A stretch of 64,000 nt of DNA from the human T2T-CHM13v2.0 reference genome, Homo sapiens: the NCBI GenBank assembly GCA_009914755.4, contig CP086569.2, forward strand, positions 6,240,001 through 6,304,000. Reading direction: 5' to 3'. Shown here piece after piece: positions 9,272-11,912 of this stretch (the first letter of the stretch is position 1; the number at the start of each line of letters is the position of its first letter). A program made the position numbers and the translations under genes. The notes beneath the pieces were generated by a model. That model searched no databases, was not told the origin of the DNA, and saw only the letters and a list, made by a program, of their open reading frames with translations.

Positions 9272-9792
9272 AATATTAGGTATCAACTTGACTAGATTGA
9301 AGAATTCCTAGATAGCTGGTAAGGTATTGCTTCTGGGTGTGTCTGTGGGGATGTTGCCAGAGGAGACTGACATATGAGTAAGTGGACTGGGAGAGGAAGA
9401 CTCACCCAAAATGTGGTGGTCACCATCCAATAGGCTGCCAGCATGACGAGAAAAGAGTGGGCAGAAGAAAGTGGAATGTAAATTGGCTTTCTGAGTCTTC
9501 TGGCTTTCATCTTTCTCCTGTGCTGTATGCTTACTTCTGTTTCTCCTTCCCTCAGACGTCAGACTCCAGATTCTTCAGCCTTTGTACTCTTGGACTTACA
9601 CCAGTGGTTTGCCCGGAACTCTTGGGCCTTCAACCCCAAACTAAAGGCTGCACTGTCAGCTTCTCTGCTTTTGAGGCTTTTGATCTTGGACTGAGCCACT
9701 ACTGGGTTCTTTCTTCTGCAGATTGCAGATGGCCTTTCTGGAACTTCACCTTGTGATCATATGAACCAATTCTCCCTAATAAACTCCCTTTC
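9272..9792 (+). mobile_element. MaLR-type solo LTR (same family as 945-1447); its last ~55 bp continue at 11913-11965
   Basis: caacttgactagattgaagaattcctagatagctggtaaggtattgcttctgggtgtgtctgtgg...gcagattgcagatggcctttctgg...aataaactccctttc. The L1 insertion interrupts it; the remainder ...atatcctattagttctgtccctctagagaaccctaacgaatacag is at 11913-11965. Confidence 0.55.
9779..9792. repeat. Target-site duplication (left copy) of the twin-primed L1: ataaactccctttc
   Basis: Identical 14-mer at 11899-11912 bounds the L1 insertion exactly. Confidence 0.85.
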
Positions 9793-11638
9793 TTTTTATT
9801 TTTATTATTATACTTTAAGTTCTAGGGTACATGTGCACAATGTGCACGTTTGTTATATATGTATACATGTGCCATGTTGGTGTGCTGCACCCATTAGCTG
9901 GTCATTTACATTAGGTATACCTCCTAATGCTTTCCCTCCCCCCTCCCCCCACCCCACAACAGGCCCCATTGTGTGATGTTCCCCTCCCTGTGTCCAAGTG
10001 TTCTCATTGTTCAATTCCCACCTATGAGAACATATGGTGTTTGGTTTTCTGCCCTTGCAATAGTTTGCTAAGAGTGATGGTTTCCAGCTTCGTCCATGTC
10101 CCTACAAAGGACATGAACTCATCGTTTTTTATGGCTGCATAGTATTCCATAGTGTATATGTGCCACATTTTCTTAATCCAGTCTATCATTGATGGGCATT
10201 TAGGTTGGTTCCAAGTCTTTGCTATTGTGAATAGTGCTGCAATAAACATACATGTGCATGTGTCTTTATAGCAGCATGATTTATAATCCTTTGGGTATAT
10301 ACCCAGTAATGGGATGGCTGGGTCAAATGGTATTTCTAGTTCTAGATCCCTGAGGAATCACCACACTGACTTCCACAATGGTTGAACTAGTTTACACTCC
10401 CACCAACAGTGTAAAAGTGTTCCTATTTCTTCACATCCTCTCCAGCACCTGTTGTTTCCTAACTTTTTAATGATTGCCATTCTAACTGGTGTGAGATGGT
10501 ATCCCATTGTGGTTTTAATTTGCATTTCTCTGATGGCCAGTGATGATGAGCATTTTTTCATGTGTCTGTTGGCATAAATGTCTTCTTTTGAGAAGTGTCT
10601 GTTCATATCCTTTGCCCACTTTGTGATGGGGTTGATTTTTTCTTGTAAATTTGTTTGTGTTCTTTGTAGATTCTGGATATTATCCCTTTGTCAGATGAGT
10701 AGATTGCAAACATTTTCTCCCATTCTGTAGGTTGCCTGACCACTCTGATGGTAGTTTCTTTTGCTGTGCAGAAGCTCTTTGGTTTAATTAGATCCCATTT
10801 GTCAATTTTGGTTTTTGTTGCCATTGCTTTTGGTGTTTTAGACATGAAGTCCTTGCCCATGCCTATGTCCTGAATGGTAATGCCTAGGTTTTCTTCTAGA
10901 ATTTTTATAGTTTTAGGTCTGATATTTAAGTCTTTAATCCATCTTGAATTAATTTTTGTATAAGGTGTAAGAAAGGGATCCAGTTTCAGCTTTCTACATA
11001 TGGCTAGTCAGTTTTCTCAGCACCATTTATTAAATAGGGAATCCTTTCCCCATTTCTTGTTTTTGTCAGGTTTGTCAAAGATCAGATGGTTGTAGATGTG
11101 TGGTATTATTTCTGAGGGTTCTGTTCTGTTCCATTGGTCTATCTCTCTGTTTTGGTACCAGTACCATGCTGTTTTGGTTACTGTAACCTTATAGTATAGT
11201 TTGAAGTCAGGTAGTGTGATGCCTCCAGCTTTGTTCTTTTGGTTTAGGATTGTCTTGGCAATGCGGGCTCTTTTTTGGTTCCATATGAACTTTAGAGTAG
11301 TTTTTTCCAATTCTGTGAAGAAAGTCCTTGGTAGCTTGATGGGGATGGCATTGAATCTATAAATTACCTTGGGCATTATGGCCATTTTCAAGATATTGGT
11401 TCTTCCTATCCATGAGCATGGAATGTTTTTCCATTTGTTTGTGTCCTCTTTTATTTCATTGAGCAGTGTTTTGTAGTTCTCCTTGAATAGGCCCTTCACA
11501 TCCCCTGTAAGTTGGATTCCTAGGTATTTTATTCTCTTTGAAGCAATTGTGAATGCGAGTTCACTCATGATTTGGCTCTCTGTTTTTCTGTTATTGTATA
11601 GGAATGCTTGTGATTTTTGCACGTTGATTTTGTACCCT
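9793..11638 (-). mobile_element. L1PA (approx. L1PA3-5) 3' segment, 1.85 kb, with poly-A tail. This is the main segment of a twin-primed insertion.
   Basis: Poly-T/A-rich tail at 9793-9815, then the reverse complement of the L1 3'UTR and ORF2 C-terminal half. Minus-strand ORF 11017-11622 translates to ...[39 protein letters not shown]..., which is L1 ORF2. Confidence 0.9.
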
Positions 11639-11898
11639 CAGACAATATCATACTGAATGGGCAAAAACTGGAAGCATTCCCTTTGAAAACTGGCACAAGA
11701 CAGGGATGCCCTCTCTCACCACACCTATTCAACATAGTGTTGGAAGTTCTGGCCAGGACAATCAGGCAGGAGAAAGAAATAAAGGGTATTCAATTAGGAA
11801 AAGAGGAAGTCAAATTGTCCCTGTTTGCAGATGACATAATTGTATATTTAGAAAACCCCATCATCTCAGCCCAAAATCTCCTTAAGCTGATAAGCAAC
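11639..11898 (+). mobile_element. Inverted L1PA ORF2 segment (260 bp), the 5' part of the same twin-primed insertion
   Basis: Sense L1 ORF2: [85 protein letters not shown]. It ends at aagctgataagcaac and abuts the TSD. Its L1 coordinates lie immediately upstream of where the minus segment begins (~35-bp gap). Confidence 0.85.
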
Positions 11899-11912
11899 AT
11901 AAACTCCCTTTC
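11899..11912. repeat. Target-site duplication (right copy): ataaactccctttc
   Basis: Identical to 9779-9792. Confidence 0.85.

What the first reader, a model, noticed from the sequence alone, without database searches (positions are those of the whole stretch)
9779..11912. L1 insertion with a 5' inversion (twin-priming architecture) and intact 14-bp TSD, nested in a MaLR LTR
A 2.1-kb L1PA insertion is bounded by the perfect 14-bp direct repeat ataaactccctttc (9779-9792 and 11899-11912). Its 3' 1.85 kb, with poly-A tail, is on the minus strand (9793-11638). The adjacent 260 bp (11639-11898) is L1 ORF2 on the plus strand. The inverted piece covers the L1 coordinates immediately upstream of the breakpoint of the main segment (ORF2 ...ANIILNGQ...KLISN versus VQKSQAFLY...). 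Its high-coordinate end abuts the TSD, and roughly 35 bp of L1 sequence are missing at the junction. This is exactly what the twin-priming model of L1 integration (Ostertag and Kazazian) predicts. The insertion sits inside a MaLR LTR whose two halves (9272-9792 and 11913-11965) rejoin cleanly once the L1 and one TSD copy are removed.
Basis: partly seen in the sequence, partly recalled or inferred. Interest (0 to 1): 0.55.

Follow-up and report, generated by a model that had tools for sequence, protein, structure and literature searches.

The report
Ordinary L1 insertion with inverted head
This is a dead 2.1-kb copy of the primate L1 retrotransposon whose first 260 bases were pasted in backwards during insertion, a well-known by-product ("twin priming") seen in about one in five human L1 insertions, so it is correctly read but ordinary.

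Summary
ATAAACTCCCTTTC occurs exactly twice in the window (9779-9792, 11899-11912). Between the copies lie two L1 pieces on opposite strands. The minus-strand piece (9793 to about 11638) covers ORF2p residues 730-1270, the 3'UTR and a short A-tail. The plus-strand piece (about 11639-11898) covers ORF2p residues 640-724. A collinear L1 elsewhere in the window (58757-60896) shows the two pieces are nearly adjacent in L1 coordinates. Both pieces carry the same load of private substitutions (3.9% against 3.2%, p=0.65). The first-strand nick site reads TTTC/A. This anatomy fits twin priming feature for feature.

- The inversion joint cannot be placed more exactly than 11633-11643.
- The host LTR spans 9262-9792 plus 11913-11966, not 9272 and 11965.

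Five paralogous LTR copies from metagenome contigs each carry the 14-mer once and run through it without a break. The LTR itself splits an older minus-strand L1, giving a three-level nest. The labels "MaLR" and a numbered L1PA subfamily could not be tested without Dfam or Repbase. No orthologous empty site was obtained. Known mechanism, common structure, low interest.

The parts
9779..9792 (.). Target-site duplication, copy 1 (ATAAACTCCCTTTC). The 3'-OH of its last C on the + strand is the inferred first-strand primer.
   Evidence: Exact 14-mer found only twice in the window; 0 of 100 shuffles reach 2 matches. Followed directly by TTTTTATTTTT, the complement of the L1 A-tail.
9793..9803 (-). 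Short, interrupted A-tail of the L1 (AAAAATAAAAA on the minus strand). The boundary with the A-rich end of the 3'UTR is uncertain by a few bases.
   Evidence: Sequence. 3' ends compared with two other L1 copies in the window.
9793..11638 (-). Non-inverted (poly-A-primed) L1 piece: ORF2 codons about 730-1275 with stop codons and frameshifts, 3'UTR and tail. Its 5' end may lie anywhere in 11633-11643.
   Evidence: ORF2p residues 730-936 and 938-1270. 93.6% DNA identity to the collinear L1 at 59036-60889. Broken reading frames.
11633..11643 (.). Inversion joint zone. ACCCTCAGAC (11634-11643) matches both L1 templates at 8 of 10 positions, and the two templates agree with each other at 6 of 10.
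   Evidence: Per-position table and breakpoint scan: 3 mismatches for breakpoints after 11633, 11634, 11638, 11642 or 11643. Overlapping local alignments.
11639..11898 (+). Inverted (internally primed) L1 piece: ORF2 codons 640-724, the reverse-transcriptase core including FADD. Its high-coordinate end abuts TSD copy 2 and it has no A-tail of its own.
   Evidence: ORF2p residues 640-724, E=3e-46. 94.6% identity to 58762-59021 of the collinear L1.
11899..11912 (.). Target-site duplication, copy 2. On the minus strand its 3' end (…GTTTAT-3') is the inferred second primer.
9262..9778 (+). Left part of the host solitary LTR (TGTAATGG…). The LTR sequence continues through the TSD.
   Evidence: Paralog alignments begin at 9262 and show the start TGT[A/G]ATG.
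11913..11966 (+). Right part of the host LTR, ending …GAGAACCCTAACGAATACA.
   Evidence: Paralogs L002 and L003 align through 11966 and end …CTGACTAATACA. All five run without a break from the 9792 side to the 11913 side with one copy of the 14-mer.
8977..9261 (-). Left part of an older L1 that the LTR interrupted. 9257-9261 (ATGTG) is the putative LTR target-site duplication.
11967..13037 (-). Right part of the same older L1. 11967-11971 (GTGTG) is the putative second copy of the LTR target-site duplication (4 of 5 match).
   Evidence: Joining 8900-9261 to 11972-13100 gives one collinear 1367-column alignment to L1 across the joint, 73% identity.

Best explanation
A single L1 retrotransposition event resolved by twin priming.

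Shown by the sequence: two nearly adjacent stretches of one L1, in opposite orientation, sit inside one exact 14-bp target-site duplication. The A-tail lies at one end and a tail-less internal L1 end lies at the other.

Inferred steps, following the published model:
1. L1 endonuclease nicked the + strand of the LTR at CCCTTTC/ATAT.
2. The freed 3'-OH primed reverse transcription on the L1 poly-A tail, giving the minus-strand-sense piece at 9793 to about 11638.
3. Before this cDNA passed ORF2 codon about 730, the other strand was cut 14 bp away, between 9778 and 9779.
4. Its 3' overhang (…GGGAGTTTAT-3') primed a second reverse transcription inside the same RNA, just after ORF2 codon 724. This cDNA ran about 260 nt towards the RNA 5' end and gave 11898 down to about 11639.
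5. The two cDNA ends were joined at 11633-11643, possibly helped by a 6-of-10 inverted similarity between the two L1 sites.
6. The 9-18 nt of RNA between the two start and stop points were never copied.

The copy was dead on arrival, being 5' truncated and rearranged, and has since picked up stops and frameshifts. It has no evident function.
For: - TSD exact and unique.
- Opposite strands and ORF2p coordinates 640-724 against 730-1270.
- A collinear L1 in the same window places the inverted piece at 58757-59021 and the start of the main piece at 59031-59040, so only 9-18 nt are missing.
- A-tail at the 9793 end only. The inverted piece ends inside ORF2 directly on the TSD.
- The nick site TTTC/A is one of the three L1 endonuclease motifs used in PMC12016303.
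- The 14-bp TSD sits within the published quartiles of 10-15 bp.
- Equal divergence of the two pieces: 94.6% against 93.6% identity to the reference copy, with 260-column windows of the main piece ranging 91.1-97.3%. Private changes are 7/180 against 37/1158, Fisher p=0.65.
- The pre-insertion site is continuous in five paralogous LTR copies.
- 5' inversions occur in 18-22% of human L1 insertions, and in 46% of them the two cDNA ends lie within 20 bp on L1.
- The model itself is described in PMC2837659.
Against: - No empty orthologous site was obtained, so insertion as one event is inferred from the TSD and from adjacency, not observed.
- There is no terminal complementarity between the inferred second primer (…TTTAT-3') and the L1 RNA just 3' of the priming point (UUCAG…). 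This is my own reading. The literature reports that microhomology is sometimes absent.
- The microhomology at the internal joint is imperfect and not significant on its own.
- The A-tail is unusually short, about 11 nt against published medians of 34-39. This is plausibly shrinkage with age.
Confidence: 0.9

Rival explanations
1. A conventional 5'-truncated L1 insertion (ORF2 codon about 640 to the tail) whose first ~270 bp were later inverted in place by a DNA rearrangement that also deleted 9-18 bp.
For: This gives the same topology as twin priming: the high-coordinate end of the inverted piece sits next to the TSD. Sequence alone cannot formally exclude it.
Against: One breakpoint would have to fall exactly on the L1/TSD boundary and leave the 14-bp TSD untouched. 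No inverted repeats that could mediate such an inversion are evident at the two breakpoints. 5' inversions of exactly this form arise in new somatic insertions at about 22%, so a later event is not needed.
Confidence: 0.03
2. Two cDNAs from two different L1 RNA molecules (a 'dual priming' or template-switch variant). The top-strand overhang primed on a second L1 transcript rather than on the one already being copied.
For: Dual priming has been proposed as theoretically possible (PMC2837659). The two pieces cannot be tied to one molecule by sequence.
Against: The internal priming point and the stop of the first cDNA lie only 9-18 nt apart on a ~6-kb element. That is expected if both polymerases shared one template. 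For unrelated molecules my estimate is about 40/6000, under 1%. Divergence of the two pieces is indistinguishable.
Confidence: 0.04
3. Two independent L1 insertions that happen to lie side by side in opposite orientation, with the flanking 14-mers matching by chance or as part of the LTR.
For: L1 fragments are very dense in this window.
Against: The 260-bp piece has no A-tail and no TSD of its own. The 14-mer pair is not expected by chance. The 14-mer is single-copy in five paralogous LTRs. The L1 coordinates are adjacent and the ages equal.
Confidence: 0.01

Closest known systems
L1 insertions with 5' inversion, explained by twin priming (Ostertag & Kazazian 2001, as described in PMC2837659 and PMC12016303)
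   Same: One TSD pair, with the non-inverted 3' piece carrying the A-tail. The inverted piece lies immediately upstream in L1 coordinates with its high-coordinate end at the opposite TSD. The gap between the pieces is small, the endonuclease-type nick site is TTTC/A, and the TSD is 14 bp.
   Different: Nothing of substance. The inverted piece (260 bp) is shorter and the non-inverted piece (1846 bp) longer than the germline medians of 751 and 571 bp. The A-tail is short. No terminal primer-template complementarity is visible at the internal priming site.
Twin-priming variants with an inverted poly-A tail, and 'dual priming' (Meyer et al. 2010, PMC2837659)
   Same: Both strands of the staggered break are used as primers.
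   Different: Those loci carry a 5' poly-T stretch and no, or a very short, non-inverted L1 body. Here the non-inverted body is 1.85 kb and there is no 5' poly-T at the 11898 end.
Nested transposable-element insertions in the human genome (PMC2836564 surveys these; I saw only its abstract)
   Same: A younger L1 inside an LTR inside an older L1. Each host element is restored when the guest plus one TSD copy is removed.
   Different: None. This is a routine pattern.

Membership tests
L1 insertion with 5' inversion (twin priming) | Two segments of L1 in opposite orientation enclosed by a single pair of target-site duplications | tested here: met
   Exact 14-bp TSD, unique in the window. Minus-strand piece = ORF2p 730-1270. 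Plus-strand piece = ORF2p 640-724.
L1 insertion with 5' inversion (twin priming) | The non-inverted segment carries the L1 3' end and A-tail next to one TSD. The inverted segment has no tail and its high-coordinate end abuts the other TSD. | tested here: met
   …AGTATAATAATAAAAATAAAAA|GAAAGGGAGTTTAT on the minus strand, and …AAGCTGATAAGCAAC|ATAAACTCCCTTTC on the plus strand.
L1 insertion with 5' inversion (twin priming) | The inverted segment derives from L1 coordinates just 5' of the non-inverted segment, with only a small deletion or overlap | tested here: met
   Against the collinear L1 in the window, the inverted piece ends at 59021 and the main piece starts at 59031-59040. The gap is 9-18 nt. 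46% of published cases fall within 20 bp.
L1 insertion with 5' inversion (twin priming) | L1 endonuclease-type first-strand nick site (TTTT/A and close variants) | tested here: met
   Pre-insertion + strand CCCTTTC/ATATA gives TTTC/A, one of the motifs counted in PMC12016303.
L1 insertion with 5' inversion (twin priming) | Both segments come from the same source element and have the same age | tested here: met
   Identity to the reference copy 94.6% against 93.6%. Private substitutions 3.9% against 3.2%, Fisher p=0.65. Identity to an old L1 72.4% against 71.6%. The power of the test is limited by the 260-bp length.
L1 insertion with 5' inversion (twin priming) | Microhomology at the internal joint and at the internal priming site (frequent, not obligatory) | tested here: inconclusive
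   Joint: the two templates agree at 6 of 10 positions and the observed sequence is a mosaic of both. Priming site: the terminal base is not complementary and only 6 of 14 overhang positions pair (my reading).
L1 insertion with 5' inversion (twin priming) | Arose as one event: the orthologous empty site carries the target sequence once | not testable with these tools
   No primate genomes are available. The metagenome scan with the empty-site 24-mer returned only paralogous LTR copies. Exact-protein look-ups of two locus-specific ORFs found nothing.
L1PA (primate L1 lineage) | Close similarity to primate or human L1 ORF2 | tested here: met
   81 of 85 (95%) and about 185 of 206 (90%) residues identical to human ORF2p in PDB entries 8c8j and 8sxt. 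93-95% DNA identity to another L1 in the window, against 66-74% to the old L1 copies.
L1PA (primate L1 lineage) | Subfamily-diagnostic positions against L1PA2-L1PA17 consensuses | not testable with these tools
   No Dfam or Repbase library. The only indirect evidence is that the 3'UTR shares states with the more diverged copy at 5945-6799 (CCCTAGAACTT, AACAAAC) and not with the copy at 58.7-60.9 kb (CCCTAAAACTT, AACTAAC). That suggests a mid-age subfamily.
MaLR (ERVL-MaLR) solitary LTR | Dispersed repeat with defined LTR termini TG…CA | tested here: met
   Five independent copies at 70-80% identity share the ends TGT[A/G]ATG … CTGACTAATACA. The boundaries are confirmed independently by restoration of the interrupted older L1.
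MaLR (ERVL-MaLR) solitary LTR | 5-bp target-site duplication (a class III ERV property, recalled from my own knowledge) | tested here: inconclusive
   ATGTG (9257-9261) against GTGTG (11967-11971), 4 of 5. The paralogs' flanks show no clear TSD.
MaLR (ERVL-MaLR) solitary LTR | Sequence match to a named MaLR consensus (MLT1, MST or THE1) in Dfam or Repbase | not testable with these tools
   No repeat library. A text search for terminal strings found no paper. From memory, the …CTAATACA 3' end is typical of MaLR LTRs. This is a lead only.

The most novel reading that the evidence does not exclude
The joint may preserve a footprint of how the two cDNAs were joined. 11634-11643 (ACCCTCAGAC) is a mosaic of the two L1 templates, which are themselves 6-of-10 inverted-complementary there. 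That is what patchy repair of a short mismatched heteroduplex between the two cDNA ends would leave. In addition, the uncopied stretch of RNA (14 nt at the middle placement of the joint) equals the 14-nt top-strand overhang. This would fit the overhang lying along the RNA and blocking the first reverse transcriptase. Both are single-locus coincidences that ordinary point mutations in a copy of this age can also produce.
Probability: 0.1. Interest if true: 0.25.

Novelty: already known. Interest (0 to 1): 0.1.

Why it matters
It matters little beyond annotation. It is a clean, fully resolved example of a twin-priming L1 insertion with an intact TSD inside a three-level transposon nest. It could serve as a teaching case or as a phylogenetic presence/absence marker. 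It adds nothing to the mechanism, which is documented from thousands of germline and somatic insertions.

Tried and rejected
- Empty-site search: a metagenome scan with CCCTAATAAACTCCCTTTCATATA found 5 contigs. All were paralogous LTR copies at 70-80% identity, not the orthologous locus. They helped with LTR continuity and termini but not with dating.
- Exact-protein look-ups of the junction-spanning ORF (11617-11934) and of the LTR ORF (9382-9756) in public assemblies found nothing on record.
- Ostertag & Kazazian 2001 is not held, either by DOI or by PMC id. I cited the model from PMC2837659 and PMC12016303 instead.
- A text search for LTR terminal strings, meant to find a printed consensus, gave 0 papers.
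- The first literature query was rejected for a term that was too short, and one find call for a bad character.
- Naming the L1PA subfamily and the MaLR subfamily was abandoned because there is no repeat library. My recollection of the consensus sequences is a lead, not evidence.
- TSDs of the paralogous LTR copies were not recognisable.
- I did not scan the bacterial/archaeal genome or viral collections. A hit there would only be host contamination of unknown species and could not date the insertion.

Full report
**1. The observation**

The 14-mer ATAAACTCCCTTTC occurs at 9779-9792 and 11899-11912 and nowhere else in the 64-kb window, even with one mismatch allowed. None of 100 dinucleotide-preserving shuffles gave two matches. 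The repeat cannot be extended on either side, so it is exactly 14 bp.

The stretch between the two copies is L1 in two pieces:
- The six-frame translation of the minus strand of 9793-11645 reads as L1 ORF2 with stops and frameshifts.
- Against solved human ORF2p structures (8sxt numbering, 1275 aa), the minus-strand piece covers residues 730-936 and 938-1270. The 3'UTR and the tail AAAAATAAAAA follow, directly abutting the TSD.
- The plus-strand piece 11639-11898 covers residues 640-724 (E=3e-46).

**2. An internal reference and the size of the gap**

The window holds another L1 on the plus strand, uninterrupted across the relevant region. Blast aligns 58762-59021 to the inverted piece (94.6% identity) and 59036-60889 to the main piece (93%).

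Local alignments extend a little further on both sides. The inverted piece matches 58757-59021 and the main piece matches from 59031. These two alignments overlap in the window at 11634-11643 (ACCCTCAGAC). A per-position table shows that this decamer matches each template at 8 of 10 positions and that the two templates agree with each other at 6 of 10. A breakpoint after 11633, 11634, 11638, 11642 or 11643 costs the same number of mismatches.

The L1 sequence absent between the two pieces is therefore 9-18 nt.

**3. One source, one date**

- Identity to the reference copy is 94.6% for the inverted piece and 93.6% for the main piece. Windows of 260 columns along the main piece range from 91.1 to 97.3%.
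- Identity to a much older L1 (42.3-45.5 kb) is 72.4% against 71.6%.
- At sites where the younger reference and the old L1 agree, the inverted piece has 7 private changes in 180 sites (3.9%) and the main piece 37 in 1158 (3.2%). Fisher p=0.65.
- A three-way comparison of the last 826 nt with a third copy (5945-6799) gives 14 private changes (1.7%).

Nothing distinguishes the two pieces by subfamily or age, although the 260-bp piece gives limited power. At this divergence, about 39% of 14-bp TSD pairs would still be perfect (my calculation), so an intact TSD is unremarkable.

**4. Target site**

With the L1 and one TSD copy removed, the + strand reads …CCCTAATAAACTCCCTTTC/ATATATAC…. The + strand 3' end …TTTC is continued by the complement of the A-tail. 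The first nick was therefore TTTC/A, one of the three L1 endonuclease motifs counted in PMC12016303. The second nick, 14 bp away on the other strand, leaves …GGGAGTTTAT-3'. This is continued by the complement of …AAGCTGATAAGCAAC, that is, by cDNA primed inside ORF2 after codon 724.

I see no terminal complementarity between that primer and the L1 RNA downstream (UUCAGC…). The literature notes that microhomology is sometimes absent.

**5. The host**

A scan of metagenome contigs with the reconstituted empty-site 24-mer returned five contigs. They are paralogous copies of the same repeat, 70-80% identical over about 500 bp, and not the orthologous locus.

In every one, the sequence homologous to the left flank (to 9792) runs straight into the sequence homologous to 11913-11966, and the 14-mer occurs once. 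So the 14-mer is part of the LTR family sequence, as it must be for a target site inside the LTR, and it is not a native duplication.

The paralogs fix the termini at TGT[A/G]ATG… and …CTGACTAATACA.

Independently, deleting 9262-11971 restores an older minus-strand L1 (8977-9261 plus 11972-13037) as one collinear 1367-column alignment. ATGTG and GTGTG (4 of 5 match) are the probable LTR target duplication. The structure is a three-level nest: old L1, then LTR, then L1 with a 5' inversion.

The name MaLR rests on my memory of the …CTAATACA terminus and could not be tested.

**6. Mechanism**

The anatomy matches the twin-priming model described in PMC2837659. The first strand is primed on the A-tail. 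The second-strand nick occurs before first-strand synthesis is complete. The top-strand overhang primes internally on the same RNA. The two cDNAs are then joined, with a small internal loss.

Shown here are the arrangement, the L1 coordinates, the TSD, the nick motif and the equal divergence. Inferred are the order of events, the use of one RNA molecule and the mode of joining.

Rivals are listed in the report sections. A later in-place inversion needs a breakpoint exactly at the L1/TSD boundary. Two RNA molecules do not explain the 9-18-nt adjacency on a 6-kb element. Two independent insertions are contradicted by the tail-less, TSD-less 260-bp piece.

**7. Comparison with what is known, and novelty**

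5' inversions occur in 18.4% of germline and 21.9% of somatic human L1 insertions. In 46% of inverted insertions the two cDNA ends map within 20 bp of each other. The median TSD is 13 bp, with quartiles 10-15.

This locus is a typical member. It has a shorter inverted piece and a longer non-inverted piece than the germline medians, and a short tail. It is an already known kind of structure and carries no new mechanistic information.

**8. What remains open**

The numbered L1PA subfamily, the MaLR subfamily and the date of insertion all remain open. A rough age of 10-25 Myr follows from 1.7-3.9% private divergence at an assumed neutral rate. Settling these needs a repeat library and primate orthologues, which these tools do not offer.

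The mosaic joint, and the equality of gap length and overhang length (14 nt), are noted as curiosities. They have a low probability of meaning anything.

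Noticed in passing
window about 56200-60910 (+ strand): A long L1PA-type copy with an A-rich tail near 60880-60910, used here as the collinear reference. Its ORF2 is broken into ORFs of 153-335 aa, so it is dead. Its 3'UTR has CCCTAAAACTT and AACTAAC where the studied copy and the older copy at 5945-6799 have CCCTAGAACTT and AACAAAC, which suggests a younger subfamily. 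Its 5' extent was not determined.
   Followed up: partly
window 8977-9261 and 11972-13037 (- strand): An older L1 (about 73% identical to the L1PA copy) split by the LTR. It is restored as one collinear alignment when 9262-11971 is removed, giving a three-level nest.
   Followed up: yes
window 12003-12020: A run of about 17 T inside the older L1, where other L1 copies read CTGTTGTTTCCT. It looks like a homopolymer expansion, not an element boundary.
   Followed up: no
window 5945-6799 (+ strand): A 3'-terminal L1 fragment of about 855 bp with an A10 tail, 88% identical to the studied copy and 86% to the copy at 58.7-60.9 kb.
   Followed up: partly
window about 40950-45462 (+ strand); also 34286-34922, 36627-37292, 26218-26630, 27519-28288: Several much older L1 fragments, 65-72% identical to the L1PA copies. 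The window is very L1-rich.
   Followed up: no
window 256-527, 8049-8292, 14827-15057, 16514-16774, 53738-53975: About 250-bp repeats that all match the same stretch (21-271) of metagenome contig L003 at 70-75% identity. Their size and copy number suggest Alu-type SINEs, but they were not examined.
   Followed up: no
window 9777-9783 (TAATAAA) within the LTR: The L1 target-site duplication overlaps an AATAAA motif about 70 bp before the 3' end of the LTR (in LTR sequence with the L1 removed). This could be the LTR's polyadenylation signal. The L1 landed in the T-rich stretch just downstream of it.
   Followed up: no
loci L001-L005 (metagenome contigs): Five short 'metagenome' contigs carry mammalian LTR copies, and one (L003) also carries an Alu-like repeat. 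They are most likely host-DNA contamination of those metagenome assemblies.
   Followed up: no
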